The notes under the pieces: generated by a model | Told to the model about the DNA's origin: nothing | The model's database searches: none | Seen by the model: the letters and a program-made list of their open reading frames with translations, nothing else | Part shown: positions 123 through 43,437 of the stretch, piece by piece | Layout: every line of letters begins with the position of its first letter | Numbering within the stretch: the stretch's first letter is position 1 | Program-made: the position numbers and the translations under genes | Origin: an uncultured virus (IMG/VR IMGVR_UViG_3300029305_005079) | Taxonomy: Duplodnaviria; Heunggongvirae; Uroviricota; Caudoviricetes | DNA: 64,000 nt | Strand: one strand, 5' to 3' | Virus record (IMG/VR): IMGVR_UViG_3300029305_005079

Positions 123-2369
123 TTACTCATTATCTGAGTCGTCCGGAGCTTCTAGCGGTGCAGTGATCTTATCAGGATCTTCGAAGAAGATCATAGGCTC
201 ATAATACTCGCCAGGAGTCGGTTTGAATTCTTCATCCTTGGGCTCTTCAAGACCATTAATAGCAAACTGAGGTCTTTCCATGAAGAATAAATCCATAAAT
301 GAAGCTCCTCTCTTTCTGAATGTAAGAGGATTATAAAGCAGTTTATCCACCTTCTGATAACTCATAGAGATGGTAACACTAGGGTTGTCTGTAAGAGATC
401 TATTAAGAGATAAAATCTCATAATCTGGATCATACATAAACCACTTGGGTTTTTTAAGAATATCGTGAGCATCTCTGATCTGGTTAGAGATAATAATCTC
501 AAGATGTGTAGATGCTATATTAAGTCCACCTTCTATAACTGTATCAATCACAGCCTGCAAAAGCTGATGGATATCGAGACCTTTAATGGTGCTATTTTTA
601 TTCAATAAATCTTCAAGATGCTCAAGAGTTTTAGACAACTCATTATTTTCAATAGGAATAATAAAGAGAGTAATATTCTTGAGATCAGGAAGATCTATAG
701 AAATTTTTCCATCAAGAGGTTCTCCTTTCTTACGGATAATACTATTCAATTCATTTGAAATATATAGTTTAACGCCTTTATCATTTGTAATATGATGAAG
801 CTCATTACCCTGCAAAATATCGAATTCTGTAATATATTCATTATAGATAGGAGCTGTATTGTCATCATCACCAAATCCAAGATCATCATCTTCTTCATTT
901 ACGAGTTCGATATTTTCAGGATCTAGAATGAACTTGCAATCTTTAAACTCTCCATCGTCTACAAGACGAATCATATTACCTTCGATTTCAAAGAATTCAT
1001 TAAACTTCTTAACCCATACAACTTTTTCAGCAAATGTCTCGAGAAGATGTTTTGCAGAAAGAAGTTTCTGAGTAAGGCTAGACGAAAGTGTTTCGCTTGC
1101 TATACGTCCGATATTTACGCCAAAATGGATTCCGGCATCATATACTGTATAAGCAAGATCTCCATAGCACTTATAACAAACTCCATGACCTCTAGCGGCT
1201 GAAGCGCAAGTGATAGGAGATCTAAGATAAATTTTCTGACCTATAAGATGTGTATCATTTCTAGATATCTGCATGTCTACCCCTCTAGGATTAAGACGAT
1301 AATATCTATTACAAAGCATCTTAAGAGTTTTCTTATCTTTAATAATGACTTCTACAAAATTAGGTGTACAACAATCGTAATTCTTATCTTCATGAAGGAA
1401 AGAATCCATATTGTTAAGACCGAGAAGTCGTGCAAAATGACCAGAAGATCCTACGTTATTATATTTAATAATCTGAGCTGTTCTTCCAGTAGATGATTCG
1501 ATAAAGTAATCAAGAGGTGTTACAACACCACCATTGATAAACGAGTTATAGATCGGTATCGGGAAAATACCGCCCCTACCGTCAGGTTTGGTTCCGATAT
1601 TGATAGTAAACTCTTTAAACTGCTTCGGATTAATACCTTCAGAAGCTCTACATGCATCTGCAAGGCAGTGGTCATATCCGAGATAGCCCTTGGCATCTTT
1701 CATAATATCGATTGCTTTATTTGCAAATTTCATACCTACCGATTTTACATCTTCGATAGGCACATTTCTTAAATCTGCATGCATGCAATCTCTAAATTCT
1801 CCACACTTGTTCATGAGGAAAACATTGTCTTCAAGATTTACCGTATTCGCCAAATACATTGCAAATTCATCAACGTCATGAAAATGACAAAGAGTATCAT
1901 CAATAATATTATTAAGCTCTTTATTAGTAAATCTTTTTCTATTCGCATCGATAAAGAATTTATCAATATAATCTTTGATTGTATCTTTCTTAATCTCTGT
2001 ATCAAAGAAAACATGCTTAGATTCTATAGGAGTGTCTGTCCTAATAAGCATATTCCACATGATGAGATTAATAAGATAATCTGGAATTGAGAGTTCAAGA
2101 ACATTATTATCAGCGAATGTAACGCTAATAAAACATTCATGAACAAGATCAAGTTCGATACCATCTCTAAGAATATTAAGGATAGAGTCATAATGCATTT
2201 TCCAATTTTCTTTAGTGATATCGGCTGTATTAATGAAAATTAAATTATCATTTTCATAGTTTAAAATTTGTGCATAAGGCCCATAATTCTCTGGATGGTT
2301 AAGGCTTTGAGTTTCCTCATAATAACCATTATCAAGTAATATAGACCTTGAAAGATCATAGTTTGCCAT
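123..2369 (-). CDS. Multisubunit RNA polymerase beta-prime C-terminal subunit (probably non-virion RNAP)
   Basis: RSPITC...CYKCYG Zn site and NIGRIASETLSSSLTQKLLSAKH trigger-loop-like segment; start moved to ATG 2369 after AGGAG; early-type promoter upstream. Confidence 0.88.
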   Translation of the reverse strand: MANYDLSRSILLDNGYYEETQSLNHPENYGPYAQILNYENDNLIFINTADITKENWKMHYDSILNILRDGIELDLVHECFISVTFADNNVLELSIPDYLINLIMWNMLIRTDTPIESKHVFFDTEIKKDTIKDYIDKFFIDANRKRFTNKELNNIIDDTLCHFHDVDEFAMYLANTVNLEDNVFLMNKCGEFRDCMHADLRNVPIEDVKSVGMKFANKAIDIMKDAKGYLGYDHCLADACRASEGINPKQFKEFTINIGTKPDGRGGIFPIPIYNSFINGGVVTPLDYFIESSTGRTAQIIKYNNVGSSGHFARLLGLNNMDSFLHEDKNYDCCTPNFVEVIIKDKKTLKMLCNRYYRLNPRGVDMQISRNDTHLIGQKIYLRSPITCASAARGHGVCYKCYGDLAYTVYDAGIHFGVNIGRIASETLSSSLTQKLLSAKHLLETFAEKVVWVKKFNEFFEIEGNMIRLVDDGEFKDCKFILDPENIELVNEEDDDLGFGDDDNTAPIYNEYITEFDILQGNELHHITNDKGVKLYISNELNSIIRKKGEPLDGKISIDLPDLKNITLFIIPIENNELSKTLEHLEDLLNKNSTIKGLDIHQLLQAVIDTVIEGGLNIASTHLEIIISNQIRDAHDILKKPKWFMYDPDYEILSLNRSLTDNPSVTISMSYQKVDKLLYNPLTFRKRGASFMDLFFMERPQFAINGLEEPKDEEFKPTPGEYYEPMIFFEDPDKITAPLEAPDDSDNE

Positions 2370-2445
2370 AGTTTCATTCTCCTTTGCTTGATTAGATAAA
2401 TTCCGCACTGTTATTAGGTTGTTTTGGTTATTGTAACAACCTAAT

Positions 2446-2462
2446 TTCAATATAATAATATA
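2446..2462 (-). promoter_or_regulatory. Putative early promoter TATATTAT-N6-GAA
   Basis: Motif recurs at 10 intergenic sites. Confidence 0.65.
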
Positions 2463-2608
2463 TATCTATAATAAAAAATGGTGAGACTAGACGTCTTCGG
2501 TACGTCTAGTCTCTTTTTCGAAAGGAAATAAAAAAATGAAAAAAAAAACAACTTTTCGCGGCTGAAATATTCTTGAAAGGATGTTAAGGAACTCGGCAAA
2601 TTCCTTTA

Positions 2609-3169: not shown

Positions 3170-3349
3170 ATGCAAGAAAAAGAATCTAAAAGAAATGATC
3201 GTTTAGCAAAAGTGATGGCAAGAAATATTTGTAATTCCATCTATGGATCCTGCAACAAGTCCAGAGAAGAATTGGAGAAGGAACATGCCTATCGATTGTC
3301 TAAACAACCTGAAATAGAAAAACAAATACGAGCACGATTGGAGGCTTAA
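3170..3349 (+). CDS. 59-aa small protein with PolB motif-B-like peptide (RNICNSIYG)
   Basis: Not in the ORF track; GGAGGT RBS, ATG 3170, TAA 3347-3349. Confidence 0.7.
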   Translation: MQEKESKRNDRLAKVMARNICNSIYGSCNKSREELEKEHAYRLSKQPEIEKQIRARLEA

Positions 3350-3354
3350 TAATT

Positions 3355-3621
3355 ATGAGGTATACAGCATTAACCCCATTAAGTTCCGGGGATGCTATAC
3401 AAACATTGGTCAAATATTTATTAGGAGAAGACTATTATATAGTAGATCCTGTAAATGGAGAGCAAGGGAATGCTATTATTGTAGATGATATTCTTCGTAA
3501 ATATAGTAGAAAATATCGTAAGCAATTAAAAGCAGAAGAAAAATTAAAGAAAAAAGAATTACGATTAAAAGATGAGCTAGATATCTGCAAAAAATCTATT
3601 AGCAAAATCTGGAATAAGTAA
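3355..3621 (+). CDS. Hypothetical protein
   Basis: ORF with GGAGG RBS in the polymerase operon. Confidence 0.7.
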   Translation: MRYTALTPLSSGDAIQTLVKYLLGEDYYIVDPVNGEQGNAIIVDDILRKYSRKYRKQLKAEEKLKKKELRLKDELDICKKSISKIWNK

Positions 3622-3637
3622 AGGAGGAATAAAACAA

Positions 3638-5752
3638 ATGGCAATAATTACAGATAGCTTTAGAACTGCTTTAGCAACTTATCCGGATACACAAGCAATA
3701 ACCAACTATAAGAAAATTATGATGGACATGCTTCATTTGAATTTTCCATCATTATCTGAGGCTGAGCTTGCAGCTGCTATCGATTATTCTATCTCTAATC
3801 ATTTTAAAGACACAGATATTACAATCGATAATAATTATAAGAAAATCAATATCAATATGACTCTTAGAGAGTTAGCTGATTATATTACGAGTAAAGAACC
3901 AATCATCACATCTTATGGAGTTCTGTTTAATAGACACGGAGTTCTCCCTAATCCGATTTATAATATGATAGACTCTTTTATTATGGGACGAAAAAAGATG
4001 AAGAAAGAGATGTTTAAATATCCTAAGGGATCTGAATTATTTGAAAAATATAACCTTCTTCAGTTACTATTAAAACTCGATGCCAATGCATATTATGGGG
4101 CTACTGGCCAGTATAGTTGTATTTACTATAACTTATATGCTGCAGCAAGTGTAACGACTCAGGGTAGATCTTGTAATTCGGCAGCAGCATTATTCTTTGA
4201 AAGTTTCTTAAATAATAATGTGCCAATGGGCTCTATGAATGAGCTTATCGAGTTTATCCATAATGTCCTTAATGAGAATCATCATTATGATTCTATTGAT
4301 ATTATTACAAATCATGCATCTATTGATGAAACATTTTTTCAGCTATTGTCATCTACTGGATGGGGTTGGATTCCAACAGAAGATGAGATGCATATTATTT
4401 GGGAAATCTTATCTAAATTAGATCAGGATCAACTTGATAGACTTTTCTACAAAAATAACCTATTTAATTTTATAGACAATACTCCTATAAAACAAGCAAT
4501 TTTGTTTATCCTTCAGACCCTTAAGGCTCCATTTATGGATCCTAATGAGCCGCCTGAAGAGATAGTAGATTTGCTTAAAGAGTTCTGTGATGTATTGAAA
4601 GAATATGTTTATTATGATAAACAAATTATAGATAGACTTGAAAAGATGGATTCTCTTATAAGAACCGTTTCTATTATTCAAGATACAGATAGTGCTATTA
4701 TTTCTCTTGATGGATGGTATCAGTATGTAAGACAAATGTGTGCTGGTGTACCTATGACTATTAAGAATGAAATTACAGATGCACTCGAGTTTATCGAATC
4801 TGGAGAGCTTAAAACCTCTGAAGTAAAAAGAATGGTTGAAGAGTATAGTTTCCTAGATGATGATATTATAGAGGTAGATAGACTGATAGATCCTATGGTT
4901 ATTACACCTCAGGATGGTTTAAGATATTCTATTATTAATATTATTTCTTATTGTATAGGAATTCTTGTAAACGATTATATGGACAAGTATTGTAGAAATG
5001 CTCATACTGATAATGAGCGTGCTTGTCTTATTAGTCTCAAGAATGAATTTTTATTTAAACGCGTTCTTATTACTGATGCAAAGAAGCACTATGCATCTAA
5101 GATGGAACTTCAAGAAGGAAATACAATTCCTGAAGAGAAATCTCTCGATATTAAAGGCATGGATGCGTTTGTTAAATCTAGTATGAATCCTGCAGTTCAA
5201 GCTAGATTGAAGAAGATTCTATATGATGATATTCTTAATTCTGAAGCTATAGATCCGGTAAAGGTTTTAAGAGATATTGCTGTTGTTGAAAAGGAGATCT
5301 TTACTTCTATTAATAATGGTGAGAAGAAATTCTTTAAGCCTGTAAAGGTTAAGGCTTTATCAGCATATGAGAATCCTACTAGAATTCAGGGTATTATGGC
5401 ATCTTATGCTTATAATGCTCTTCATGAGCCCGGTACTGAGGCTCTTGATATGTCAATTAGAAATTCTGTCGATATTGTTAAAGTAGATATAACTATGAAG
5501 AATATAGATAGAATTAGAGAATCTCATCCATATGTATATGAGAAAGCTATCGAACTTCTTAAGACTAAAGAATTTGCTACTGGAATATCTTCTGTAGCTA
5601 TTCCTTTGAATGAACCTGTTCCTGGTTGGGTATTACCATTTATTGAATATCATGTAATTATCAACGATAATGTATCTGGATTCCCAATTGAATCTATTGG
5701 ACTTTATAGAGGGTCTGATAAAAACAATTCTACAAATATGGTGAGTTTCTAA
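3638..5752 (+). CDS. Divergent family-B DNA polymerase subunit (phiKZ-like split type)
   Basis: KLDANAYYG (motif B), QDTDS (motif C), KKHY and DIKGMD; no exonuclease domain or motif A visible. Confidence 0.85.
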   Translation: MAIITDSFRTALATYPDTQAITNYKKIMMDMLHLNFPSLSEAELAAAIDYSISNHFKDTDITIDNNYKKININMTLRELADYITSKEPIITSYGVLFNRHGVLPNPIYNMIDSFIMGRKKMKKEMFKYPKGSELFEKYNLLQLLLKLDANAYYGATGQYSCIYYNLYAAASVTTQGRSCNSAAALFFESFLNNNVPMGSMNELIEFIHNVLNENHHYDSIDIITNHASIDETFFQLLSSTGWGWIPTEDEMHIIWEILSKLDQDQLDRLFYKNNLFNFIDNTPIKQAILFILQTLKAPFMDPNEPPEEIVDLLKEFCDVLKEYVYYDKQIIDRLEKMDSLIRTVSIIQDTDSAIISLDGWYQYVRQMCAGVPMTIKNEITDALEFIESGELKTSEVKRMVEEYSFLDDDIIEVDRLIDPMVITPQDGLRYSIINIISYCIGILVNDYMDKYCRNAHTDNERACLISLKNEFLFKRVLITDAKKHYASKMELQEGNTIPEEKSLDIKGMDAFVKSSMNPAVQARLKKILYDDILNSEAIDPVKVLRDIAVVEKEIFTSINNGEKKFFKPVKVKALSAYENPTRIQGIMASYAYNALHEPGTEALDMSIRNSVDIVKVDITMKNIDRIRESHPYVYEKAIELLKTKEFATGISSVAIPLNEPVPGWVLPFIEYHVIINDNVSGFPIESIGLYRGSDKNNSTNMVSF

Positions 5753-6134: not shown

Positions 6135-6437
6135 ATGAACACAACAGACAAATTTGAAGGAAAAGTTTTAAATGCTTTAGACAAGCTTGAAGATGAAGGT
6201 AAGATTGTAGGACTTGTAGATCCTATGGCTTTCGATTCCGAAGAAGAACTTGAAACTAAGAAGCGTATATGGAGGGATATCTTTGATAGAAATCCCGATC
6301 TTTCAAATCTCATCATCAGTATCTATGCAGATCTTGGTGATGATGGATTGTATGAATATCTCTTTACATTTATTAGAGATAATTTTGGCGCTTGGTATCA
6401 GGAAGTTACAAAATCCGAAGCCAAGAATGCTGATTAA
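6135..6437 (+). CDS. Hypothetical protein
   Basis: ORF with AAGGAG RBS and downstream terminator. Confidence 0.75.
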   Translation: MNTTDKFEGKVLNALDKLEDEGKIVGLVDPMAFDSEEELETKKRIWRDIFDRNPDLSNLIISIYADLGDDGLYEYLFTFIRDNFGAWYQEVTKSEAKNAD

Positions 6438-6537: not shown

Positions 6538-8070
6538 ATGAATAAGATTATTATTTATCGTACTCATATCGAAATTAATGATTATGAATTAGGAGATTGC
6601 CCTTCTATAGAGAAGACATTTTCTATATACGATATGACTTATCATAAGAGATTTCCCAAAGGAATGATTTATGATAAAGAGAGGAAAGTATTGATGCTTC
6701 CGAGAGGCATCGATATTGGTTTTATAGAACGATTACTACAATCAGAACCTGTCGTAGATCCTTCTATGGATATTCCAGGAGAGATTGGACAGGTTAAATT
6801 AAAATATAAGCCTAGAGATGAAACTCAGCAAGAAGCTATTAAGTTTATGCTTAGTATGGATAAGTATAGACATAACGAAACTAGTACAATGCTATCGGTA
6901 AATTTAAATACTGGTAAAGGTAAGACATATTGTGCTATTGCTACAGCGGCGTTTTTAGGACTTAGGTCTATCGTAATTACCGACAGTATCGGGTGGTTAG
7001 AACAATGGAAAAAATTCTTTATTGAATATACCGATATAAAGGCTGAAGAGATTTATATGATATCAGGATCTCCATCTTTGATGAAATTATTCAATAGAGA
7101 TATATCAAAATATAAAGTCATTCTTTCTACCCATTCTACTATAAAGAGTATTGGAGACACACAAGGATGGGATAAGATTAGAACCTTCTTTCAATATTGT
7201 CAAATAGGAATTAAGTTTTATGATGAAGCCCACCTGAATTTTGATAATATGTTTCAGATAGATTGCTATAGTAATACCTTTATCACGTATTATCTTACAG
7301 CAACTCCTGGGCGTAGCGATGCTCAAGAAAACATGATTTTTGGATTATATTTTAAAAATGTACCAAAAATTAATTTATTTAATGATGAGGAAGACCCTCA
7401 TACGAAATATGCAGCTATTAAATTTAATTCAGATCCAACTCCAGTGCAAGCTGGAGCTTGTAAAAATAATTATGGATTAAATAGAATAGCATATACAGAT
7501 TATCTTGTACACAATCAAAACTTTAAGAAGCTTTTGATTATTATTGTAAGTATGGCTCTTAAGAAACCTGGAAAACATTTATTTTATATAGGTACTAATG
7601 AAGCCATCTTATATGTAAGAGATCTTATATATGAATCTTTTCCTGAATTAATAGGTCAAGTTGGTATTTATACAAGTATTATACCTCCTGATAAGAAACC
7701 TATGGAATTGGAAAAGAAGATTATATTGAGTACAACAAAGAGTGCCGGTGCAGCCATGGATATTAAAGGATTAGCAGAAACCGTTAATCTTGCTGAACCT
7801 TTTAAATCTAGAGTATTAGCACAACAAACTCTTGGACGTACAAGAAGTGAAGATACTTTATATAAAGATATCGTAGATACTGGATTCTTTTATACAAAGA
7901 AGTTTTATGAATTTAAGAAACCCGTATTTAAAAAATATGCTACAGATTGTGTAGAGGTTATTCTTAAGAATGATGAACTTCAATCAAGATCCGAGAAGAT
8001 TATATCAGATAGGGAAAATCTAATACAGCCTATGGAGTTCTTTGATCCAAATAAGAAAGCGGAAGATTAA
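6538..8070 (+). CDS. Superfamily 2 (UvsW-like) DNA helicase
   Basis: TGKGKT, FYDEAH, LTAT and QTLGR motifs. Confidence 0.9.
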   Translation: MNKIIIYRTHIEINDYELGDCPSIEKTFSIYDMTYHKRFPKGMIYDKERKVLMLPRGIDIGFIERLLQSEPVVDPSMDIPGEIGQVKLKYKPRDETQQEAIKFMLSMDKYRHNETSTMLSVNLNTGKGKTYCAIATAAFLGLRSIVITDSIGWLEQWKKFFIEYTDIKAEEIYMISGSPSLMKLFNRDISKYKVILSTHSTIKSIGDTQGWDKIRTFFQYCQIGIKFYDEAHLNFDNMFQIDCYSNTFITYYLTATPGRSDAQENMIFGLYFKNVPKINLFNDEEDPHTKYAAIKFNSDPTPVQAGACKNNYGLNRIAYTDYLVHNQNFKKLLIIIVSMALKKPGKHLFYIGTNEAILYVRDLIYESFPELIGQVGIYTSIIPPDKKPMELEKKIILSTTKSAGAAMDIKGLAETVNLAEPFKSRVLAQQTLGRTRSEDTLYKDIVDTGFFYTKKFYEFKKPVFKKYATDCVEVILKNDELQSRSEKIISDRENLIQPMEFFDPNKKAED

Positions 8071-8187: not shown

Positions 8188-9633
8188 ATGCTTACTATAT
8201 TTGATAGAATCCAAAACACAGCTATCCTTGCAAGTATGATGTTTGAAAACATCTTTGACAAGGATGACTCTCGCGATGAAAACCGTGCAGCCGGTGATAA
8301 CTTCAACAACGATGGTGATAACACCAATGAAGATATTAATGCTGCAAACAAAACAACCGAATCTGAAAAGAAAGATGAGGAAAAATCAGAAGATACGGCT
8401 TCTTCTGAGGTAAAAGTAGACGCTGCAACAGAGGCTGCAATGTCTAGTGGAAACAGAGTCGAAGATGCACATCAGCCTGGTGTGATTAATCTCGGCTTTG
8501 GTGTCGTAATGGACACTAACAAGATGAGAACTCCTACAGTAGATCCTGCAGTATTTGCGCAGATGAATGCTAATGGAGCAAACCCTCAGCAAAATCCTTA
8601 TTTTGCACACATGCAGCAGCAGGCAGCTCAGCCTATGTCTGCTAATCCTATGTTTATGAATGGGATGCCTCAGCAACAGACTTTTGTTCCTCCGGTACAA
8701 GCGGGACTTATTCCTGGACAGGGAAGGCATAAAGTCGATAATCCGCCTCCTGCAAAAAAGGAGGTAAAGAAAGCCGATGCCGATAATGTAGATGTGGATC
8801 TTTCTGCTCTCCACGGTATCGAAACAAATCCCCCGAAACCCCCTAAACAGTGGCCTGATTCTGTGAGCGCAAAGCTTCCTAATCCCGGTCCTGTAGAGCA
8901 AGCTCCAACAATATCCGTGTTCGATAATACGACAGTTACAAACAAACCTAACTGCAGATATCTTGCGGAGATTGAAAAGCTGGCTCTTGAATGTGGAGTT
9001 CAGATTCAGATGCTTCAGAGAGTTGGAGTAAATGGTTCTGAAAATGGTCTTATTAGTTGTGTAGTATATACACCCGAATCTGATAAGCCTAATCCTTACA
9101 AGGGCTTTACTATCGATACTGGTATGATTATCGATAAGAGAGCAAAAGTATTCCCGGCAATCCTTACTACAGGATATGAAGATGTGCCTGCATTCCCTGT
9201 ATTAATTCCCGATCCTAATAATAAGGAAGGCGGAAAGAGTAAAAACATTCTGAATGTTCAGTTATTCAGAGACATCTTTACAGGCGGAGTTCAGATGCTT
9301 AATAATGCGACATCAATGTATACTCCTGACTTTATGGAACTTAATAAGAGCGTAGCTCTCATCACAATGCCTACTCAGAATATGAACAAAGAGACAAGAA
9401 TCAAAGTTCGTGATCGTCTGATGGCTGCAATGAAGGCTGGAGTCTTTAAAGAAGTTCATAAAGTTGATGAGTATTCGAGATTTGTATTCAAGCATTATGA
9501 TAAGAAAGATAACTCGTTTGTTCTTAGCAATGCTGGTGTTCCTTATCGTTTCGGTGGGGTTCCTCAGAATCAGAAGAACATCGAAATCATATTCGCCTCT
9601 GATGGCAAAACCCGAATTAAGTACGTAGACTAA
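8188..9633 (+). CDS. Hypothetical early protein with long Q/P-rich disordered N-terminal half
   Basis: ORF with strong RBS and early-type promoter at 8117-8133. Confidence 0.8.
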   Translation: MLTIFDRIQNTAILASMMFENIFDKDDSRDENRAAGDNFNNDGDNTNEDINAANKTTESEKKDEEKSEDTASSEVKVDAATEAAMSSGNRVEDAHQPGVINLGFGVVMDTNKMRTPTVDPAVFAQMNANGANPQQNPYFAHMQQQAAQPMSANPMFMNGMPQQQTFVPPVQAGLIPGQGRHKVDNPPPAKKEVKKADADNVDVDLSALHGIETNPPKPPKQWPDSVSAKLPNPGPVEQAPTISVFDNTTVTNKPNCRYLAEIEKLALECGVQIQMLQRVGVNGSENGLISCVVYTPESDKPNPYKGFTIDTGMIIDKRAKVFPAILTTGYEDVPAFPVLIPDPNNKEGGKSKNILNVQLFRDIFTGGVQMLNNATSMYTPDFMELNKSVALITMPTQNMNKETRIKVRDRLMAAMKAGVFKEVHKVDEYSRFVFKHYDKKDNSFVLSNAGVPYRFGGVPQNQKNIEIIFASDGKTRIKYVD

Positions 9634-9742: not shown

Positions 9743-10525
9743 ATGGCTAAAGATAGAGAACTTATCGAGCCTATGGAGTTCTTCAAAATAGATAAAGTTT
9801 CGGATGATGTGTATGCATTAGGTCCGAATGTGATATTAAAATTTAATGTATCTCTTTCGAAGATATCCAATGGTAAGAGACACCATTTTCATAAAGAATA
9901 TGAATATTCCTCTCGAGGAATTCCAGAGCAACCAACTCTAGTTACTATAAAACGTAGTTTTGATTATTATCTTTCTATAGAAAATATGCAGAAGGATAGT
10001 AATGGTAATAAAGCTTTTATAAGAATTGGACCTCAAGAATATATGCTCTTCAAGCGAGGACTTGAAGAAGCAATTTCTTGGTTTACAGATAAGAAATGGT
10101 CTAAATTATTTGCTCATGATAAAGGAAAGTTATTTCTAGTATCGCCGATACCAGAATTTGATATTCCAAATTTACCTATGCAAAAATATATACATATCAC
10201 TCCAGTGATTATCGATAAAGGTATAGCGAATGCCGATAAAGAACCTGGAGTTAGATTTGTACTTGGAGACGAATCTAATTTTGTAGATATGAATCTTGAT
10301 AGATTGATGGGGTTGTATTATATAATCTCATGCTTTAATATGTATCAGGCAGCTCTATCAATTGTTAATTATGTAGAGCGCCCAGAGTTTGGTACAAATA
10401 GATTTATTATGAAAACAGAATTTTCTATACCTGATAAGCAGGAAGACGTTAGACAAGGAGTATCTGGTATAACTTCTGGTAGGGTAGTAGATTGTAAACG
10501 AAATATAAGTTCATTGGAGGGCTAA
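9743..10525 (+). CDS. Hypothetical protein
   Basis: ORF; AAGGAG RBS before ATG 9743. Confidence 0.75.
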   Translation: MAKDRELIEPMEFFKIDKVSDDVYALGPNVILKFNVSLSKISNGKRHHFHKEYEYSSRGIPEQPTLVTIKRSFDYYLSIENMQKDSNGNKAFIRIGPQEYMLFKRGLEEAISWFTDKKWSKLFAHDKGKLFLVSPIPEFDIPNLPMQKYIHITPVIIDKGIANADKEPGVRFVLGDESNFVDMNLDRLMGLYYIISCFNMYQAALSIVNYVERPEFGTNRFIMKTEFSIPDKQEDVRQGVSGITSGRVVDCKRNISSLEG

Positions 10526-14692: not shown

Positions 14693-14801
14693 AGCTATTT
14701 TCCTCCTTTCATTTATATTAAAAGGATAATTATTTATAAGTTGAACCATTAAGGTTGGCAAAAGAATTAGACCAATCTAATATCTAGATTGGTCTAATAT
14801 T

Positions 14802-16216: not shown

Positions 16217-16288
16217 AGCTATATATTATATTTTTAAGAAGCCGAAAACTTCTTAATAAATTTAATATATTCACGGAGGTATCAAATC

Positions 16289-20273: not shown

Positions 20274-20302
20274 AAGTAAACTCTTACTTTCTAAGCAATC
20301 GT

Positions 20303-20315
20303 AACATCTTGGTAA
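20303..20315 (+). promoter_or_regulatory. Putative late promoter AACA-N6-TAA
   Basis: AACATCTTGGTAA upstream of the probable capsid gene. Confidence 0.7.
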
Positions 20316-20389
20316 AAATATTGTCGTATAAACGGCATATTTAAAAATGCATAAAAATATATTAAGCTTAATAGAAAGGAGCATGTAAT

Positions 20390-25741: not shown

Positions 25742-26536
25742 ATGGCATTTGGAAGCACTTATAACAACAACAAAAAAGAAAGTAATGTTCCCGAACTTAC
25801 AGTATACTCTGGTTATAGATTTAATAATGCAGAGTCTAAGATCGATGCAACTTGTTTGACATTCAGATTCTGGAAGGGTAACCTTTGTGTAGGTATCTTC
25901 CCCAGAAGAAATACTGGAAATGATGAAATTTCGTTCGATATGGATAATGGTATCACCATTTATCTATCTCATACAAAGGCTCGTATTCTTAAGCATGAAC
26001 TCGAACTGTTTTTGTCCGATCCTATTACTTACAACTCTGTAGGAGTGCCTTCTGGACAGGCAGCTATTACAATTTCTAATGGTTCCGAGTATGGCAAGAA
26101 TAATCCTGTCATTACCATCAGAAAGGTAACAGAGACTGGCGAGGTCGTAGCAAGCTTTAGCTACGAATTCAAAACCGATATGCATCATTCTATCAGAAAC
26201 TACGATGGAAAGAATTTTGATGCTGTATATGACGATTATAAAAATATCGAGATTGAGCAGTTTATTACTGTACTTGACGAATTTGTAAAAGCATCTACTA
26301 ATGCAATTGCATTTTCTGTTATGGATCAGAGAAAGTATTCTCAGAGCAGGGTTGAAGACAAGATCAATCAGATCTGCGCAAGCCTTGGTATTGAAACTGC
26401 AAGAGCACAGTCCAATGGACGCGGTGGCTCATACAATAGAAGCTTCTTTAATTCTTCTGCTTCCGATAATGGAAATTCTGGATATTCCGCAAATTCGGTA
26501 AGCTATGGCTCGGCTTCTATTGATGATCTTGAATAA
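25742..26536 (+). CDS. Putative single-stranded DNA-binding protein
   Basis: Beta-rich core, G/S/N-rich tail and acidic terminus IDDLE. Confidence 0.45.
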   Translation: MAFGSTYNNNKKESNVPELTVYSGYRFNNAESKIDATCLTFRFWKGNLCVGIFPRRNTGNDEISFDMDNGITIYLSHTKARILKHELELFLSDPITYNSVGVPSGQAAITISNGSEYGKNNPVITIRKVTETGEVVASFSYEFKTDMHHSIRNYDGKNFDAVYDDYKNIEIEQFITVLDEFVKASTNAIAFSVMDQRKYSQSRVEDKINQICASLGIETARAQSNGRGGSYNRSFFNSSASDNGNSGYSANSVSYGSASIDDLE

Positions 26537-29002: not shown

Positions 29003-29175
29003 CAATATTATAATCCTTCTGTGGATTAAAACTTTGACTGACAAACTTCAAGATGAACGGTCTTTCTGTGATATCTTGTCACCTCCTCACTTTAAAACAC
29101 CCAACCGGCTTCATGTCGGTTGGGTGTCATATTTTTTAGTCATCCGTTCTACCAGTTGTTTGATTGTCCATAGCT

Positions 29176-31923: not shown

Positions 31924-32071
31924 AACTATCACACTCCTTTCAAAGTTTTATTATAAAGTTATGGTGTTCCTGAGTTAACCTTTACAGGCTCATTCACATA
32001 CTTATAATCATTATGAGGTATAAAATTATACTGATTACAGTTAATTAAATTAATGATTGTGGAGGTTTATA

Positions 32072-32251
32072 ATGAAAAAAGACAAAGCACAATCGTATAC
32101 GGTAGCTAAGGATGATTTCATTACTTTTTTAGCTTCCGCAAGTCCAGAAGAAGTTTCTAGATATATTCTTGAAAAAGGAAAACCTAGAAAACTTATAGAA
32201 CCGATGATCTTCTTTGATAGAGATAAGAAGATTGACGATAAGAAATGTTAA
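32072..32251 (+). CDS. Small protein with IEPMIFF motif
   Basis: GGAGGT RBS before ATG 32072. Confidence 0.7.
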   Translation: MKKDKAQSYTVAKDDFITFLASASPEEVSRYILEKGKPRKLIEPMIFFDRDKKIDDKKC

Positions 32252-33499: not shown

Positions 33500-34312
33500 T
33501 TAATTAGCAAATATCATAGGTCTAATAAAATTATCTGAAACGTTAAAATCTACAATTCCAACTTTTCTTCCATCTTTATTTACTATATGCATATCTGCTT
33601 TAATATGATAGACATCATAATAGCCAGCATAATTATAAGCTAATTCGCAGAATCTATTTATAGATTCATCCAAATATCTGTTATTGCTTTTAATTACTAC
33701 AGAATCAATTCCATTAAAGTTTAGAATTATATCATCCGTTAATCTATCATTAGAAAAGATCTGAAGCTTGTGGAACAACTGAAAATCTCTAATAATAATA
33801 TTGGCTATAGTCTGTTTATAAAATTGCTCTGCTGTTGCTTTTGTATAATTACCCTCATCTGGTAAGTCTGGAGATGTAATAGATGAGATATCTATCCTGA
33901 TCCCTACTAATGAAGATAATTGTCTTGCATTATTTGCAACCCAATCATAACTAGCTCTTTCTACGTCACCCTCTACTGATTTTCTATATTCAGTACGAGT
34001 ATTGTAAGTGAGCATAGAAATGACTTGATCTGCATGATGCAATTCATGAGAAATAGCCCATGCGATAGTGCTTGCAATATAAGTCTCTTTAGGAAGTATA
34101 CGAGACCATTCATCTTGCCAAGAATCTATAATAGTCCCTATATGGACTGCTATATAATTCGGATACCTAATATTAGCATAGGTACCATTAATCAAATCAT
34201 ACATATCAAGATATAGCAAGCAATTACTGTTTAATCTATTAATTTTTCCATTCATATAATTAAACATCTTTACAGCTACATCTGAGTAAAAATGGTATTC
34301 TTCAAATGTCAT
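33500..34312 (-). CDS. Putative zinc metallopeptidase-like protein
   Basis: SHELHHADQ (HExxH) with downstream Glu. Confidence 0.55.
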   Translation of the reverse strand: MTFEEYHFYSDVAVKMFNYMNGKINRLNSNCLLYLDMYDLINGTYANIRYPNYIAVHIGTIIDSWQDEWSRILPKETYIASTIAWAISHELHHADQVISMLTYNTRTEYRKSVEGDVERASYDWVANNARQLSSLVGIRIDISSITSPDLPDEGNYTKATAEQFYKQTIANIIIRDFQLFHKLQIFSNDRLTDDIILNFNGIDSVVIKSNNRYLDESINRFCELAYNYAGYYDVYHIKADMHIVNKDGRKVGIVDFNVSDNFIRPMIFAN

Positions 34313-36913: not shown

Positions 36914-37645
36914 GTGGTGATATATGTGAGAGATCCAAATAATATGATTAAATCATATGAGATGGAAGCACCTCCTACAGTCATTAAGATGAATGAAATT
37001 CCTCCATATGATCTGTATGACTTCGATCTCAATGATGAAAAATCATTTAAAAAATATATGCAAACCATTGAGAAATGTGTAAGACAATCTTTTGAATATA
37101 GAGCTCTTATTAATTTCTTGAGAGAATATATGGATATGAATCAGTGTGCTTTCTACCAGAATGTAAATAATACTGATACAACTAAAGTTCATATTGAAAT
37201 TCATCACGAACCTCTTAGTTTATACGATATTTGCCTTATTGTATATAATAAGAGGGTTGCTTTTAACGAACCTCTTGATGAGGAATATGTTGCTAAAGAG
37301 GTTATGTATCTCCATTATAATTTAATGGTAGGTCTTATTCCTCTTGCAGAAACTGTACACCAATTGGTTCATGCACAGTATTTATTTGTACCTACTACAG
37401 CTGTACTCGGAAAGTATAGAGAATTCGTTGATCGATATCAACCCTATATGATTCCTGAACAGTTAGAAACTCTTGAGCATATCGAGGAAGCTACTAAAGT
37501 ATATGATAGCGATGATGCAAAGCTTCTTTTGTCCAAGAATTATATCTATATAGATATGAGTGGTTCATATAATCTTCCTAAAACGGAAGATATAATTTCT
37601 ATGGTTAAGGATAGAATTAAGGATATTTTAGATGCAAAAACCTAA
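36914..37645 (+). CDS. HNH-like fold protein (paralog of 45911-46582)
   Basis: IEIHHEP...LIPLAETVHQLVH. Confidence 0.55.
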   Translation: MVIYVRDPNNMIKSYEMEAPPTVIKMNEIPPYDLYDFDLNDEKSFKKYMQTIEKCVRQSFEYRALINFLREYMDMNQCAFYQNVNNTDTTKVHIEIHHEPLSLYDICLIVYNKRVAFNEPLDEEYVAKEVMYLHYNLMVGLIPLAETVHQLVHAQYLFVPTTAVLGKYREFVDRYQPYMIPEQLETLEHIEEATKVYDSDDAKLLLSKNYIYIDMSGSYNLPKTEDIISMVKDRIKDILDAKT

Positions 37646-39738: not shown

Positions 39739-39792
39739 TAATTTTGCCAATTAGATATTATAATTAAGAATACAAGCAAAGGAGAATACAAT

Positions 39793-40914: not shown

Positions 40915-40929
40915 AGGGAGGTAATTATT

Positions 40930-43437
40930 ATGGCTAAGATAGATGTATTAGACATCTTGAGGGCAAAAAAGAAATCACCTCTTGAATTTAATTACGATAA
41001 TCTTTGGATTCCACCGATGGGGGTTTTTCTAACTCCAGATGATGTGGAGGCTTTAAGACGTATAGCTACATCTTTAAAATTATCTTCTAAAATTCAAGAG
41101 AAGTATAGAATGATAGATGATATTATGCGTCGTAGAGGGTTTAAACGATTTGCTGCAGGTACCAATAGAGTTGTTTATAGTTTTCTTGAAGATACAAGAT
41201 TTGTAGTCAAGATAGCTGTAGATAGAGTTGGTATGCAAGATAATCCTATGGAATATAGGAATCAAGAACTAATCAAACCTTATTGTGCAAAGATGTTTTA
41301 TATTTCGCCTTGTGGCACTGTTGGGTTTGCAGAACGAGTTCTACCTGTAAAGAGTAGAGCGGAATTTAAAAATATCGCAAGTGATGTATTTGATATTTTG
41401 ACACACAAAATATTAGGTAAATATGTCATGGAAGATATAGGTGTCAAGTATTTTATGAACTATGGTAAACAGTTTGCCCTGGACATGGGTAACCATGTTT
41501 CAGCACCTCTTGAATTGCTGGAAGGCTAAGGGAGAAATCCTATGTTAATCAGCAGCTAAAATTATTGTATAATGAAAAAAAATCTATGGGAAAGGAGGAA
41601 GATATATGGAATATATCAGACCTATGGAATTTTGGAAACAATTAACAAAAGATATTGTTGGAGCTGATATAGAGGACTGGTACTGGATCAGTACAGAAGG
41701 ACGAATATATTCAACAAAATCAAATAAAATTTTAAAATTATCTTATGACAATGATGGATATGCCATTATAGGATTATACTATAAAGGGATCCATAAACAA
41801 AAGAATTTTAGGGTTAATAGACTCGTATTATTAGCATTTAATCCTGTTCAAAATGCTGAGCAATTGGTATCAAATCATTTAAATGGAATAAAAGATGAAA
41901 ATCATGAATTCAATTTAGAATGGGCCACATATAGTCAAAATACGATTCATGCATTTAATAACGGATTATCGACACCACTATATGGTGAAAAGAACCCAAT
42001 GGCCATTATAACCGACGCTCAGGCTAAACAGGTTGCTGGCATGCTATCAGAAGAAAAATATACGTATTCCGATATAGTTAATGCAACTGGAGTTCCTGTA
42101 GATATAGTTAGTAGTATAAATAATGGACGTTCTTGGGATAAATATTATAAAGAGTATGACCTTGAAAATAAGCATAATCCTAGAGAAAATGCGGTATTCT
42201 CATATTATGATATACACAAAATATGCAAATATTTTGAAGATCATCAGATAACAACATTAGATAGATCTATAAAAGAAGATATTTTGAAGTATATTAATTA
42301 TCCTTCCAATATTTCTACTAGAAAGATGCTACAGAGAATTTTTGACAAACAGAGGCATGCAAAAATATCATCATTATACAATTTTTAAGTTCAACGACTA
42401 TCGAAAGGATAGTATAGAAGAAATATCTATACAAATAACCGAGTAGAGTAGGAGAAATCCGAAGTGGGAGGCATCTTATATTTGGTAATAGAATATAAGA
42501 TGAAGATATAGTCTAGCCCTTTATGAAAATAAAGGTAGTAGCGGTTCGCTATGGGTACGGCCCAGTGTTACTTGACTATCCATTTATTTATAAGCTGGAT
42601 GGAAATAAGTTATTTTGCAATAAAGTAGATCCGGCTACAAATGAACCCTGTAATGGAGAGATCGATTACGATGTGGGTTTCAATCACTTAGTTTGTACTC
42701 GATGCGGCAAAATTTATCTGGCAACAGATTTAAAAGATGACAGCGTCGAAAACAAAATTATAATCAAAGGAGGCAATCAAATGAAAGTTGTACTCAAAGT
42801 GGGAGATGAAATTGTAGGACGTCCCATTCCTACCGAGGAGGTTATGACACCTCCGAGACGAAAGATCGAAAATAAACTCGGTCTTGTTGTAAAGATTTCT
42901 GGAGGTAATATTACACCTGCAGAAGAGGTTGTTGATAAGCAGCCTGAAACCCCTACCACTCCTGTAATCAAGGAGGATAAGAAAGAGGAGAAAGCTACTA
43001 AGGGCGAGAAGAAGCCTGAGGTTACTCCCGAAAAGCGTGAGGCTATCGAGAATATCGAAAAGTCCACAGAATCTAAATTCATTCCTAAGGATACTGTAAT
43101 CGAGCAGGAGTCTAAGAAGGAAGAGCCTGTAGTGGCTACTAAGCCTGAATCTACAGATGAACTCGAACTTGCTGTTATTGAAACTGAGGATGAAGCAGAT
43201 GAAAAAGATGACGATGCTGCAGCTGAGGTTGCTACAACAGCAAGCGCTGTAGAAACTTCTATCGCAGATAAGTATGCTGATATGTATGACGACTATGATG
43301 ACGATGGAAGTTCATTCAGAGGCCGTCAGCCTATCAGAAAGAAGAATACTGTTGAGAGGGATGCGAATGGAAGATTCGTATCTACAAAGAACGGATCTAA
43401 CAAGAAAAAGAATAATAGAATCCCTAGCAACAAGTAA
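40930..43437 (+). CDS. Protein kinase-like protein, spliced: join(40930..41466,42544..43437), 476 aa
   Basis: AAGTNRVVY, VVKIA and DIG..FMNYG joined in frame to VRYGYGPVLLDY; Cys ribbon and acidic tail. Confidence 0.75.
41467..42543 (+). mobile_element. Group I intron carrying a homing endonuclease ORF
   Basis: Core elements GAATTGCTGGAA, AATCAGCAG, GTTCAACGACTA and AAGATATAGTCT; P1 U-G pair at 41466; terminal G at 42543. Confidence 0.9.
41606..42388 (+). CDS. Intron-encoded NUMOD4/HNH homing endonuclease
   Basis: YWISTEGRIYS, NRLVLLAF and NHLNGIKDENHEFNLEW. Confidence 0.88.
   Translation: MEYIRPMEFWKQLTKDIVGADIEDWYWISTEGRIYSTKSNKILKLSYDNDGYAIIGLYYKGIHKQKNFRVNRLVLLAFNPVQNAEQLVSNHLNGIKDENHEFNLEWATYSQNTIHAFNNGLSTPLYGEKNPMAIITDAQAKQVAGMLSEEKYTYSDIVNATGVPVDIVSSINNGRSWDKYYKEYDLENKHNPRENAVFSYYDIHKICKYFEDHQITTLDRSIKEDILKYINYPSNISTRKMLQRIFDKQRHAKISSLYNF

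What the first reader, a model, noticed from the sequence alone, without database searches (positions are those of the whole stretch)
183..41635. Shared terminal peptide motif I-x-P-M-x-F-F in unrelated proteins: candidate docking or targeting signal
Seen near termini: YEPMIFF (RNAP beta-prime C-tail, 183-203), IQPMEFF (helicase C-end, 8023-8043), IEPMEFF (N-end, 9764-9784), IEPMIFF (59-aa ORF, 32195-32215), IRPMIFA (HExxH protein C-end, 33506-33526) and IRPMEFW (HNH N-end, 41615-41635). Weaker copies are VDPMAF (6216-6233) and IDPMVI in a PolB insertion (4886-4903). Synonymous codons vary, so constraint appears to be on the peptide. Several carriers act on nucleic acids, and I saw no strong copy in capsid or tail proteins. 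Inference: a short linear motif binding one hub such as a clamp, SSB, compartment scaffold or importer, which even the mobile endonuclease carries.
Basis: partly seen in the sequence, partly recalled or inferred. Interest (0 to 1): 0.88.

Follow-up and report, generated by a model that had tools for sequence, protein, structure and literature searches.

The report
Shared docking peptide in jumbo phage
A seven-residue peptide (roughly L-I-E-P-M-x-F-F) sits on the loose ends of many unrelated DNA-replication, transcription and DNA-cutting proteins of an uncultivated giant phage and changes in step across all of them from lineage to lineage, which marks it as a shared docking tag for one still unidentified partner.

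Summary
All eight coordinates translate as stated. The motif is far above chance (6 observed against 0.03 expected), lies in the coding frame every time and sits near protein ends.

The window is part of an uncultivated AR9-like jumbo phage. In three near-complete relatives 13-17 strict copies per genome sit on tails or inserts of:
- four of five non-virion RNA polymerase subunits
- the DnaB-like and SF2 helicases
- the PolB exonuclease half and NAD-ligase
- a Whirly/PUR-fold nucleic-acid-binding protein (p276)
- an HTH regulator, HNH and PD-(D/E)XK nucleases, an HExxH protein and small proteins

I found no terminal copy in virion RNA polymerase subunits or proteins annotated as structural, nor in gyrase A, the RecA-like or the SbcC-like protein.

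The decisive result is co-variation. One relative has P-I instead of P-M in nearly all carriers. More distant lineages share other variants (P-L-x-Y, R-P-L-I-x-F-Y, V-V-K-F). Helicase tails track p276 N-termini in 27 inferred same-contig pairs (7 of 20000 permutations reach the observed match). AR9 and another 34%-identity relative lack both tails and motif.

This points to one shared, co-evolving, probably phage-encoded receptor. Its identity is not shown: one co-folding job gave no answer, and no clamp, clamp loader or chimallin was found. The candidates I consider, none with direct evidence, are the core of p276 and a replication-factory scaffold.

The parts
183..203 (-). Motif copy YEPMIFF, 20 aa from the C-end of the non-virion RNAP beta' C-part (gene 123-2450, minus strand)
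   Evidence: orthologue of AR9 gp154. The tail lies beyond the region that aligns to AR9, which stops at residue 720-723 of 775. The motif is kept in relatives as YEPMIFF, IEPMIFF, YEPITF.
8023..8043 (+). Motif copy IQPMEFF, 9 aa from the C-end of the SF2 helicase (gene 6538-8070)
   Evidence: In the 4-genome alignment the only invariant columns of the last 37 are R492, Q497, P498, F501. AR9 and G005 helicases end without this tail.
9764..9784 (+). Motif copy IEPMEFF at the N-end of p276 (gene 9743-10525), directly before its folded domain
   Evidence: 54 of 127 family members have x.PM.[FYW] and 17 have x.PI.[FYW] in the first 30 residues.
9743..10525 (+). p276: Whirly/PUR-fold nucleic-acid-binding protein with a disordered C-tail ending in the tip NISSLEG. 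It is a carrier and a speculative candidate receptor.
   Evidence: AlphaFold2 model with a 127-row alignment, pLDDT 88.3. Foldseek gives PURA at probability 1.00. VIA-align gives Z 9.1 Pur-alpha, 7.8 MRP1, 7.5 StWhy2, 7.3 PBF-2. The AR9 homologue g161 matches at profile E 8e-8, lacks the N-motif and has DDDIPF in its tail.
32195..32215 (+). Motif copy IEPMIFF, 12 aa from the C-end of a 59/64-aa ORF (32057-32251)
   Evidence: The G004 orthologue has VEPIIFF.
33506..33526 (-). Motif copy IRPMIFA, 2 aa from the C-end of a 270-aa HExxH protein (33500-34312, minus strand)
   Evidence: Orthologues read IRPMIFK, IEPMEFYK and, in G004, CNAMVFAK. No Pfam or PHROG family.
41615..41635 (+). Motif copy IRPMEFW at residues 4-10 of an HNH/NUMOD4 homing-type endonuclease (41606-42388)
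   Evidence: HNH proteins of relatives start MLIQPMIF (G001), MYSPIEF (G002), MYNPIIF (G004).
6216..6233 (+). Weaker copy VDPMAF at residue 28 of a 100-aa acidic ORF (6135-6437)
   Evidence: A 55% orthologue exists in lineage-A loci, but whether it keeps the motif was not checked.
4886..4903 (+). Motif-like LIDPMVI inside an insertion of the PolB catalytic half (3638-5752); status uncertain
   Evidence: the insertion is absent from AR9 gp152, and is kept as IDPMVI (G001) and INPMII (G002). It has no Phe and is internal.
44649..44669 (+). Possible extra copy YSPIEFL at residue 12 of a 272-aa protein (44616-45434, phrog_21037, unknown function)
   Evidence: The same YSPIEF is found at the N-end of the G002 HNH protein. 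Not followed further.
25742..26536 (+). 264-aa protein with an N/S/G-rich linker and the acidic C-tip SIDDLE. It shares the tip type with p276. It is not a motif carrier but was considered as a possible hub.
   Evidence: A language-model search gave a weak lead to Whirly (0.84). No profile similarity to p276.

Best explanation
The motif is a genuine short linear docking motif. In this window its consensus is L-[IV]-x-P-M-x-F-[Fx], often followed by acidic residues. It sits on terminal extensions that the AR9 orthologues lack (disorder inferred, not measured).

Shown:
- The carriers are the phage's cytoplasmically made DNA-replication, late-transcription (non-virion RNAP) and DNA-cutting proteins.
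- The motif is held by selection on the peptide.
- It changes in step in many unrelated carriers of a genome.

Inferred:
- All copies bind the same pocket of one receptor that evolves with the phage lineage, so the receptor is most likely phage-encoded.
- Docking concentrates or tethers these enzymes on replicating and transcribed phage DNA. This is the way PIP-box or clamp-binding motifs and SSB tails organise replisomes, and the way T4 couples late transcription to its clamp (T4 recalled).
- Homing endonucleases have picked up the tag to reach the same place.

Speculative (about one chance in four): the receptor is the folded core of the Whirly/PUR-like nucleic-acid-binding protein p276, which carries the lineage's own version of the peptide right at its N-terminus.
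For: 1. Enrichment, coding-frame restriction and terminal bias.

2. Orthologues keep the motif while the flanks diverge.

3. Concerted switch. G004 has P-I where the window, G001 and G002 have P-M, in:
- nvRNAP beta' C-part and nvRNAP beta C-part (both copies)
- SF2 and DnaB-like helicases
- p276
- the 198-aa protein (both copies)
- the HTH regulator, the 64-aa ORF, the HNH endonuclease and NAD-ligase
PI.F is the 2nd most enriched of 8000 patterns there, and PM.F is not among that genome's five most enriched patterns.

4. Metagenome relatives at 46-76% helicase identity. Helicase tail, nvRNAP beta' tail and p276 N-end share lineage-specific variants: VDPIEF, LI[HD]PL.Y, RPLI.FY/RPAIVFY, VVKF[VI]. 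Permutation of one representative per lineage reached the observed match in 269, 116 and 731 of 20000 runs for the three pairings.

5. 27 p276/helicase pairs, paired by identical longest-contig length: 7 of 20000 permutations reach the observed similarity. Rare variants are shared within a pair: G-I in both, P-V in both, P-I in both in two pairs.

6. Carrier set. nvRNAP beta-N, beta-C (2 copies), beta'-C and the gp226-like subunit carry it. Virion RNAP subunits do not.

7. AR9 and G005 (helicase 33-34% identical) lack both the tails and the enrichment.

8. For p276 only: Whirly/PUR fold, an SSB-like layout, and an AR9 homologue carrying DDDIPF.
Against: - No binding is shown and no receptor is identified.
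- Several DNA enzymes lack a terminal copy: gyrase A, the RecA-like, SbcC-like, PIF1-like and primase-like proteins, RNase H and nvRNAP beta'-N. GyrB has only an internal PI-type match (LVSPIYF, residue 251 of 865), which I treat as doubtful.
- Co-variation is not perfect. The G003-type genomes have P-I in beta' but P-M in helicase and p276. Some pairs mismatch, for example EPLEFF with NPMDFF and LIDPIEF with VQLMDFF. Lineages G, H and I give low within-genome scores.
- Against p276 as receptor: lineages whose p276 starts ...EEYLK keep PM.F on the helicase; G002 p276 lost the motif; AR9 has a p276 homologue but no motif system. So p276 may be just another client.
- Disorder of the tails is inferred, not measured. 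The helicase model was too poor to tell (pLDDT 44.6).
- The pairing rests on equal contig lengths, not on seen contigs.
Confidence: 0.6

Rival explanations
1. Address tag for a selective replication compartment. The peptide is a linear targeting or partition signal that admits proteins to a phage-built, chimallin-independent compartment or condensate around the phage DNA. Its fast, lineage-private drift keeps out foreign nucleases, and homing endonucleases copy it to get in.
For: - The carriers are proteins that must reach phage DNA after being made in the cytoplasm. The injected virion RNAP lacks the tag.
- Mobile HNH genes carry the local variant.
- Lineage-specific drift resembles the species-specific import recognition reported for chimalliviruses (PMC11087766, passages read).
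- Two proteins here have Whirly-type or ChmC-like layouts with N/G/S-rich tails. ChmC forms condensates (PMC11077065, passages read).
Against: - No chimallin match in G001, G002 or G004 at E <= 1. No tubulin family hit.
- AR9-like phages are described as lacking chimallin (PMC13282480, passages read).
- Gyrase A, the RecA-like, SbcC-like and primase-like proteins and RNase H would also need entry but carry no terminal copy.
- There is no evidence of any compartment in this uncultivated clade.
Confidence: 0.2
2. Host hub. The tag binds a host protein such as the beta sliding clamp, loaded on phage DNA by the host loader, and variants reflect different hosts.
For: - The M-x-F part fits the C-terminal half of the hexameric clamp-binding motif Q-phi-x-[L/M]-x-[F/L]. 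Clamp-binding motifs sit in N- or C-terminal tails with acidic flanks, and ligase is a clamp client (PMC11139829, passages read).
- The phage encodes a PolB but no clamp or loader detectable by Pfam.
Against: - The Gln and the aliphatic second position of the clamp motif are not matched. Pro is near-invariant instead.
- The motif drifts to VVKF or RPLI.FY between phage lineages of about 50% identity and varies finely (P-M, P-I, P-V, G-I) among close relatives. A receptor that drifts at this rate is unlike what I recall of the clamp pocket, which is well conserved among bacteria.
- AR9-type phages of Firmicutes lack the tag.
- The host is unknown.
Confidence: 0.1
3. Turnover or folding tag. The peptide is a terminal degron or a docking site for a protease or chaperonin, for example the phage GroEL-like protein or the HExxH protein.
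For: - Terminal position on many proteins.
- A GroEL-like gene (27278-29002) and an HExxH protein are present.
Against: - AR9 also has GroEL but no motif.
- The HExxH protein is itself a carrier.
- Restriction to DNA and RNA enzymes, and multiple copies on one enzyme, are not expected of a degron.
- No precedent was found in the papers read.
Confidence: 0.05
4. Chance, or a DNA/RNA-level signal (for example a promoter with a TATG core) read through as peptide.
For: - CCTATG recurs in 7 of the 8 sites.
- The sites lie near gene ends, where promoters could lie.
Against: - 0 of 20000 shuffles reach the observed count.
- All 7 hits are in the coding frame and on the sense strand.
- DNA flanks share nothing beyond the codons.
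- Codons vary, and CCT is simply the common Pro codon.
- Relatives keep the peptide with other codons, e.g. CCA or CCG.
Confidence: 0.02

Closest known systems
PCNA PIP-box and bacterial beta-clamp binding motifs (CBM)
   Same: A short hydrophobic/aromatic peptide in N- or C-terminal tails or loops of polymerase, ligase, helicases and nucleases. Many clients share one pocket. Flanks are acidic. Some clients have several copies.
   Different: - The pattern differs: there is no Gln, there is a near-invariant Pro, and the spacing is I-x-P-M-x-F-F against Q-x-x-L-x-x-F-F or Q-phi-x-[L/M](x)[F/L].
- No clamp or loader gene was found.
- The main client is a phage RNA polymerase.
- The motif drifts quickly between lineages.
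T4 sliding clamp gp45 with the C-terminal tails of gp43, gp33 and gp55 (recalled, not checked in a call)
   Same: Replication and late-transcription proteins of one phage share a tail peptide for one DNA-bound hub. This would explain why nvRNAP and replisome proteins carry the same tag.
   Different: T4 encodes the clamp and its loader. This clade shows neither. Here the polymerase subunits themselves carry the tails.
SSB C-terminal tip (DDDIPF) interactome
   Same: Hub logic at single-stranded DNA, with helicases, polymerases and nucleases as partners. The AR9 homologue of p276 even contains DDDIPF. p276 and the 264-aa protein have their own conserved acidic C-tips.
   Different: The polarity is reversed. 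Here the clients carry the peptide. It occurs at N-ends as well and is not at the very C-terminus.
Selective protein import into the chimallivirus phage nucleus (PicA pathway)
   Same: A similar cargo list (nvRNAP, helicase, ligase, an HNH endonuclease) and species-specific recognition (PMC13282480 and PMC11087766, passages read).
   Different: That import is reported to use a folded surface patch and no conserved linear signal. This clade has no chimallin match.
ChmC of chimalliviruses (Whirly-fold RNA-binding protein, condensate former), as a comparison for p276
   Same: Whirly/PUR-type fold, a disordered C-tail with an acidic end, and a gene lying beside nvRNAP genes (PMC11077065, passages read).
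   Different: No profile similarity to phiKZ gp67 (probability 0.2-0.9%). Nucleic-acid binding, oligomer state and condensates are untested for p276.

Membership tests
Short linear motif (SLiM) in the general sense | 3-10 residues with a few fixed positions, recurring in unrelated proteins above chance | tested here: met
   6 observed against 0.032 expected, 0 of 20000 shuffles. Rank 2-3 of 8000 patterns in 4 genomes.
Short linear motif (SLiM) in the general sense | Lies in disordered or accessible regions, conserved as an island in variable flanks | tested here: inconclusive
   - Terminal bias.
- The tails extend beyond the AR9-homologous cores.
- Only the Q, P and F columns of the helicase tail are invariant.
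- The one structure model of a client tail was too poor to use. In p276 the first 10 residues have pLDDT 62.
PCNA PIP-box | Q-x-x-[LIM]-x-x-[FY]-[FY] (recalled consensus) | tested here: not met
   The carriers read [LIV]-x-P-[MI]-x-F-x. There is one residue, not two, between M and FF, and Q is not fixed.
PCNA PIP-box | A PCNA-type clamp is present in the system | tested here: inconclusive
   No clamp family at E <= 1e-4 in the 218 ORFs scanned (219 had references among 230 called; the 3868-aa ORF and three that straddle locus pieces were not scanned). Fold-level searches of all proteins were not possible.
Bacterial beta-clamp binding motif | Q-phi-x-[L/M]-[F/L] or Q-phi-x-[L/M]-x-[F/L] (PMC11139829) | tested here: not met
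   Only M-x-F fits. Positions 1 and 2 are I/V and E/Q/R. Pro occupies position 3.
SSB C-terminal tip type | Acidic run ending in a hydrophobic residue at the extreme C-terminus of the hub itself | tested here: not met
   The motif occurs at N-ends and 2-70 aa from C-ends of client proteins. A separate tip of this kind exists on p276 and the 264-aa protein.
Chimallivirus nuclear import cargo | The phage encodes chimallin (the nuclear shell) | tested here: not met
   phiKZ gp54 finds nothing at E <= 1 in G001, G002 or G004. A sequence search cannot exclude an unrelated shell protein.
Whirly/PUR-like nucleic-acid-binding proteins (for p276) | Tandem beta-beta-beta-beta-alpha repeats forming the Whirly/PUR fold | tested here: met
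   Model pLDDT 88.3. The top four VIA matches are all of this fold, Z 9.1-7.3. Foldseek gives PURA at probability 1.00, E 2.6e-3.
Whirly/PUR-like nucleic-acid-binding proteins (for p276) | Binds single-stranded nucleic acid; forms dimers or tetramers | not testable with these tools
   Needs biochemistry.

The most novel reading that the evidence does not exclude
The peptide is a lineage-private 'address code'. It would be the first linear targeting signal known for a phage replication compartment or condensate, here chimallin-independent and perhaps scaffolded by Whirly-fold proteins. It evolves fast enough to isolate related phages from each other's nucleases, and homing endonucleases counterfeit it.
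Probability: 0.22. Interest if true: 0.9.

Novelty: new variant of a known kind. Interest (0 to 1): 0.8.

Why it matters
Peptide-tag recruitment to a hub is textbook for clamps and SSBs. A tag shared by a phage's own multisubunit RNA polymerase, its replisome, regulators and selfish endonucleases, and seen to change in step across them, has not turned up in the papers I searched:
- jumbo phages and AR9
- short linear motif and replisome
- phage nucleus import
- Whirly and phage

The finding gives three things.

1. A ready-made handle for finding the organising centre of replication and late transcription in AR9-like jumbo phages, whose cell biology is largely unknown. The natural P-M, P-I, P-V, G-I, P-L-x-Y and V-V-K-F variants serve as built-in specificity controls.

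2. A natural example of proteome-wide co-evolution of a short linear motif.

3. If the compartment reading is right, the linear targeting signal that has been sought without success in nucleus-forming phages.

Tried and rejected
- **Co-folding.** I co-folded the helicase tail (45 aa) with a B. subtilis DnaN stand-in, the 264-aa protein and a PC4-like 137-aa protein. The verdict was no answer (ipSAE 0.00 in both runs, controls not run). This says nothing either way.
- **Helicase structure model.** Mean pLDDT was 44.6 with a 4-row alignment, so it cannot be used to judge the tail.
- **DNA-level reading** (promoter or TATG). Rejected on frame, strand and flank evidence.
- **Whole genome of the window.** Not held.
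- **Earlier findings of this scan.** None on record. One search failed on the word limit.
- **Narrowing the receptor by phyletic pattern.** 46 G001 proteins are conserved in G002 and G004 but give no tblastn hit in AR9 or G005. That is too many to choose from. p276 itself turned out to have a distant AR9 homologue.
- **Whole-record searches of metagenome contigs.** Not possible, because the records are not held.
- **phrog_12252 paralogues as a possible clamp.** The language-model search pointed to HNH-type nucleases instead.
- **PDB sequence searches** with the 481-aa, p276 and 216-aa proteins. No hits at E <= 1.
- **The PI.F DNA pattern CCNATHNNNTTY.** Too common in AT-rich DNA to be informative.
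- **Looking for the lineage whose p276 starts ...IEGAEEYLK in IMG/VR,** to test its helicase tail. It was not found.
- **The conserved LYNPLTF segment,** about 66 aa from the beta' C-end. It looks like a second copy but aligns with AR9 gp154 sequence, so I do not count it.
- **The vRNAP subunit end ...EMDPMAAFCPDD** (51338-52594). It does not fit the spacing and is not counted.
- **Capsid-targeting or prohead-protease-site readings.** Set aside because the carriers are not virion proteins and position 2 of the motif is not fixed.

Full report
**What the window is.**
PHROG and Pfam scans show a jumbo phage with split multisubunit RNA polymerases. They also find a split family-B DNA polymerase, an SF2 helicase, terminase, a prohead protease, a major capsid protein, a GroEL-like chaperonin, ThyX and an RNase H.

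There is no near-identical record among 50,697 phage genomes. By tblastn the nearest annotated relatives are AR9/PBS1, Staphylococcus S6-type, Listeria LPJP1 and Yersinia phiR1-37, at about 24-33% identity.

Synteny and AR9's annotation identify the window's 775-aa RNAP gene (123-2450, minus strand) as the orthologue of gp154, the non-virion RNAP (nvRNAP) beta' C-part. The PolB catalytic half and the SF2 helicase lie beside it, as in AR9.

- In 72 ORFs (19,690 aa) PM.F occurs seven times, always with I/L/V/Y two residues before it.
- Shuffling each protein 20,000 times gives a mean of 0.032 for [ILVY].PM.F[FAW] against 6 observed. No shuffle reaches 6.
- Because that pattern was chosen after seeing the data, I also ranked all 8000 XY.Z patterns. 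PM.F is 3rd in the window and 2nd and 3rd in two relatives.
- The constraint is on the peptide. All 7 of 7 six-frame hits are in the frame and strand of a called gene. DNA flanks share nothing beyond the codons. Codons vary. The recurrent CCT is simply the commonest Pro codon, at 59%.
- 7 of 8 strict hits in the window lie within 25 residues of a protein end, against 2.4 expected.

**Relatives and the carrier list.**
IMG/VR holds 11 contigs with helicases 73-81% identical. I fetched three near-complete ones:
- G001, 223,865 bp
- G002, 221,227 bp
- G004, 207,861 bp

Orthologous tails keep the motif while their flanks diverge. In the four-genome helicase alignment the only invariant columns of the last 37 are R492, Q497, P498 and F501.

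Genome-wide, the strict pattern [LIVY].P[MI].F is found 17, 13 and 14 times in the three genomes. Using Pfam, PHROGs and the AR9 map, the carriers are:
- nvRNAP beta-N (orthologue of gp105)
- nvRNAP beta-C (gp089, two copies about 47 residues apart)
- nvRNAP beta'-C (gp154)
- a gp226-like subunit (N-end; split into 161 + 368 aa in G001, fused in G002)
- a DnaB-like helicase (C-tail)
- the SF2 helicase (C-tail)
- the PolB exonuclease half (C-tail)
- NAD-ligase (an N-terminal extension)
- p276 (N-end)
- an HTH_3 regulator (N-end)
- HNH/NUMOD4 endonucleases (N-end)
- a PD-(D/E)XK nuclease (C-end, in G004)
- the HExxH protein (C-end)
- two Zn-ribbon proteins
- a 198-aa protein with two N-terminal copies
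- other small ORFs

Proteins with no terminal copy at the thresholds used:
- nvRNAP beta'-N
- all virion RNAP subunits
- the primase-like protein
- gyrase A
- the RecA-like, SbcC-like and PIF1-like proteins
- RNase H
- the proteins annotated as structural

GyrB has only an internal PI-type match (LVSPIYF, residue 251 of 865), which I treat as doubtful.

The contrast between the cytoplasmically made nvRNAP (about five copies per enzyme) and the packaged virion RNAP (none) is new.

**The key result: the motif changes in step.**
- G004 has orthologues of the carriers but almost no PM.F. At the same places it has P-I:
  - LYEPITF in beta'
  - LEQPIEF in the helicase
  - LEEPIEFF in p276
  - LVEPIIFF in the 64-aa ORF
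  - LVEPIIFD in the DnaB-like helicase
  - both copies in the 198-aa protein and in beta-C
  - the HTH regulator, the HNH endonuclease and the ligase
- Two G004 carriers have A-M instead.
- PI.F is the second most enriched of 8000 patterns in G004.
- A metagenome scan added 29 loci with helicases 46-76% identical. In them the helicase C-tail, the beta' C-tail and the p276 N-end carry lineage-specific shared variants:
  - VDPIEF(I), identical in helicase and p276
  - LI[HD]PL.Y
  - RPLI.FY in the helicase with RPAIVFY in beta'
  - VVKF[VI] with KVIKFV
- With one representative per lineage, permuting lineage labels reached the observed within-lineage similarity in 269 (helicase-p276), 116 (helicase-beta') and 731 (beta'-p276) of 20,000 runs. 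Lineages G, H and I contribute little.
- As an independent set I paired 27 p276 proteins with 27 helicases from the large protein collection by identical longest-contig length. This is a proxy for lying on one contig. 7 of 20,000 permutations reach the observed similarity.
- Rare states are shared within pairs: LVEGIEFF with LVQGIEF, TEPVEFF with IQPVEF, and P-I with P-I in two pairs (a third pair reads P-I against P-L).
- Mismatches exist: EPLEFF with NPMDFF, LIDPIEF with VQLMDFF, VEAMEFF with IQPMDF. In three pairs whose p276 begins ...EEYLK or the like, the helicase keeps PM.F.
- The G003-type genomes are mixed, with P-I in beta' and P-M elsewhere.
- AR9 and the 34%-identity contig G005 have neither the tails nor an enrichment.

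Concerted change of one short peptide in a dozen unrelated proteins is what a single shared binding pocket predicts. The speed and fine grain of the drift argue for a receptor that evolves with the phage.

**Search for the receptor.**
- Pfam on 218 of the 230 G001 ORFs found no clamp, clamp-loader, tubulin or classical SSB family. The 12 not scanned were 8 ORFs under 45 aa, 3 that straddle locus pieces and the 3868-aa ORF.
- phiKZ chimallin finds nothing in G001, G002 or G004. This agrees with a review that places AR9-like phages outside the nucleus-forming family (PMC13282480, passages read).
- 46 proteins are clade-conserved yet give no tblastn hit in AR9 or G005. That is too many to choose among.
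It tested the helicase tail against a stand-in host clamp, the 264-aa protein and a PC4-like 137-aa protein.

**p276.**
- p276 lies beside the helicase in all nine lineages.
- With a 127-sequence alignment it folds confidently (pLDDT 88.3). The fold's best matches are Pur-alpha, MRP1 and the plant Whirly proteins (Z 9.1-7.3; Foldseek PURA probability 1.00).
- After the fold comes a low-confidence tail ending in a conserved tip...N-I-S-x-L-E-G. 117 of 127 members have it.
- The 264-aa protein at 25742-26536 ends in a similar tip after an N/S/G-rich linker.
- A profile of p276 finds AR9 g161 (E 8e-8). That protein lacks the N-terminal motif, and its long G/N-rich tail contains DDDIPF, which I recall as the canonical bacterial SSB tip.
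- I therefore read p276 as a Whirly-fold single-strand-binding protein of the phage.
- The chimallivirus protein ChmC has the same fold class. It is a tetramer, has an N/G-rich plus acidic tail, forms condensates with RNA, and its gene lies among nvRNAP genes (PMC11077065, passages read). I found no profile similarity between phiKZ gp67 and p276 or the 264-aa protein, so this is a likeness of fold and layout only.

**Most likely mechanism.**
- Shown: a selected, terminal, co-varying peptide on the replication, late-transcription and nuclease proteins.
- Inferred: it is a docking tag for one phage-encoded receptor that gathers these proteins on replicating and transcribed phage DNA. In logic it resembles clamp-binding and PIP motifs, or T4's use of one clamp by both the replisome and late-transcription factors (T4 recalled).
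- It is not a member of those motif families. The PIP and CBM patterns are not met (for the CBM definition), and no clamp is seen.
- Speculative: the pocket is on the p276 core. Its own N-terminal copy would then act in self-association, as I recall the N-terminal segment of T4 gp32 does.
- Against this, p276 can lose the canonical motif while the helicase keeps it, and AR9 has the protein without the system.
- The main rival is a targeting code for a compartment or condensate. It explains well the nvRNAP/vRNAP contrast, the tagged homing endonucleases and the private drift. But several DNA enzymes carry no tag, and no shell protein is seen.
- A host hub such as the beta clamp fits the M-x-F half of the hexameric CBM. 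It fits the drift poorly.

**Novelty.**
- In chimalliviruses, authors report that no conserved signal sequence could be found on imported proteins (PMC11087766, passages read).
- My full-text searches turned up no description of this motif or of a proteome-wide co-varying tag in phages. These are word searches of open-access texts only.
- I rate it a new variant of a known kind of system (SLiM-hub recruitment), with a real chance of being something more unusual.

Noticed in passing
window 9743-10525 and 25742-26536: A second shared terminal peptide. p276 ends ...RNISSLEG and the 264-aa protein ends ...SASIDDLE. In each of the four genomes these two proteins carry this I-x-x-L-E tip; the same loose pattern also hit one or two other proteins in three of them. 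117 of 127 p276 homologues keep it. It looks like an SSB-type acidic tip for yet another partner.
   Followed up: partly
AR9 KU878088 133973-134998 (g161); L116: AR9's distant homologue of p276 is annotated as hypothetical. Its G/N-rich C-tail contains DDDIPF, which I recall as the bacterial SSB tip, so it may recruit host SSB partners.
   Followed up: partly
window 20291-22099(-), 27371-29044(-), 22368-23417(-), 49673-50527(-), 16271-16963(-): Very long open frames (230-602 aa) run antisense to real genes, including the major capsid protein, the GroEL-like gene and others, in a 33-39% GC genome. None has a PHROG hit. Cause unexplained.
   Followed up: no
window 56737-57696 and 57997-58629: The nvRNAP beta' N-part (orthologue of AR9 g270) is in two ORFs separated by about 300 bases. 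AR9 g270 is joined across an intron holding an HNH gene. Here it may be an intron without an endonuclease.
   Followed up: no
window 3170-3621; G001 81236-81685 (L016:5236-5682): G001 encodes a 149-aa protein matching Pfam Tad8, a type II Thoeris inhibitor (E 3.5e-20). The window has a 59%-identical counterpart in this interval, which holds two short ORFs of 59 and 88 aa. It may be a split or shortened copy.
   Followed up: no
G002 14299-15063(-) (L024): The 254-aa orthologue of the two-copy 198-aa carrier holds an exact tandem duplication, NPDGTINPMEFF twice, 20 residues apart. This suggests recent selection for two tags.
   Followed up: no
G001 187474-187887(-) (L021:16477-16887): A 137-aa acidic protein with a weak Pfam PC4 match (E 0.0045, below the family cut-off) and a conserved C-end ...FYDPKSI[IL]. 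AR9 also annotates a PC4-family protein, g093.
   Followed up: partly
window 36914-37645 and 45911-46582(-): Two paralogues of phrog_12252, of unknown function. A language-model search places the nearest named clusters among HNH or nicking endonucleases (0.90-0.94).
   Followed up: partly
window 8188-9633: A 481-aa protein between the helicase and p276 has an acidic N-terminal part and then a Q/N/M/P-rich low-complexity stretch (...AQPMSANPMFMNGMPQQQ...). It evolves fast, at 41% identity to G001, and has no PDB or PHROG match.
   Followed up: partly
G001 147630-149117(-) (L019:14633-16117): A reverse-transcriptase gene (Pfam RVT_1, E 3e-15) lies in a G001 region that has no counterpart in G002 or G004.
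   Followed up: no
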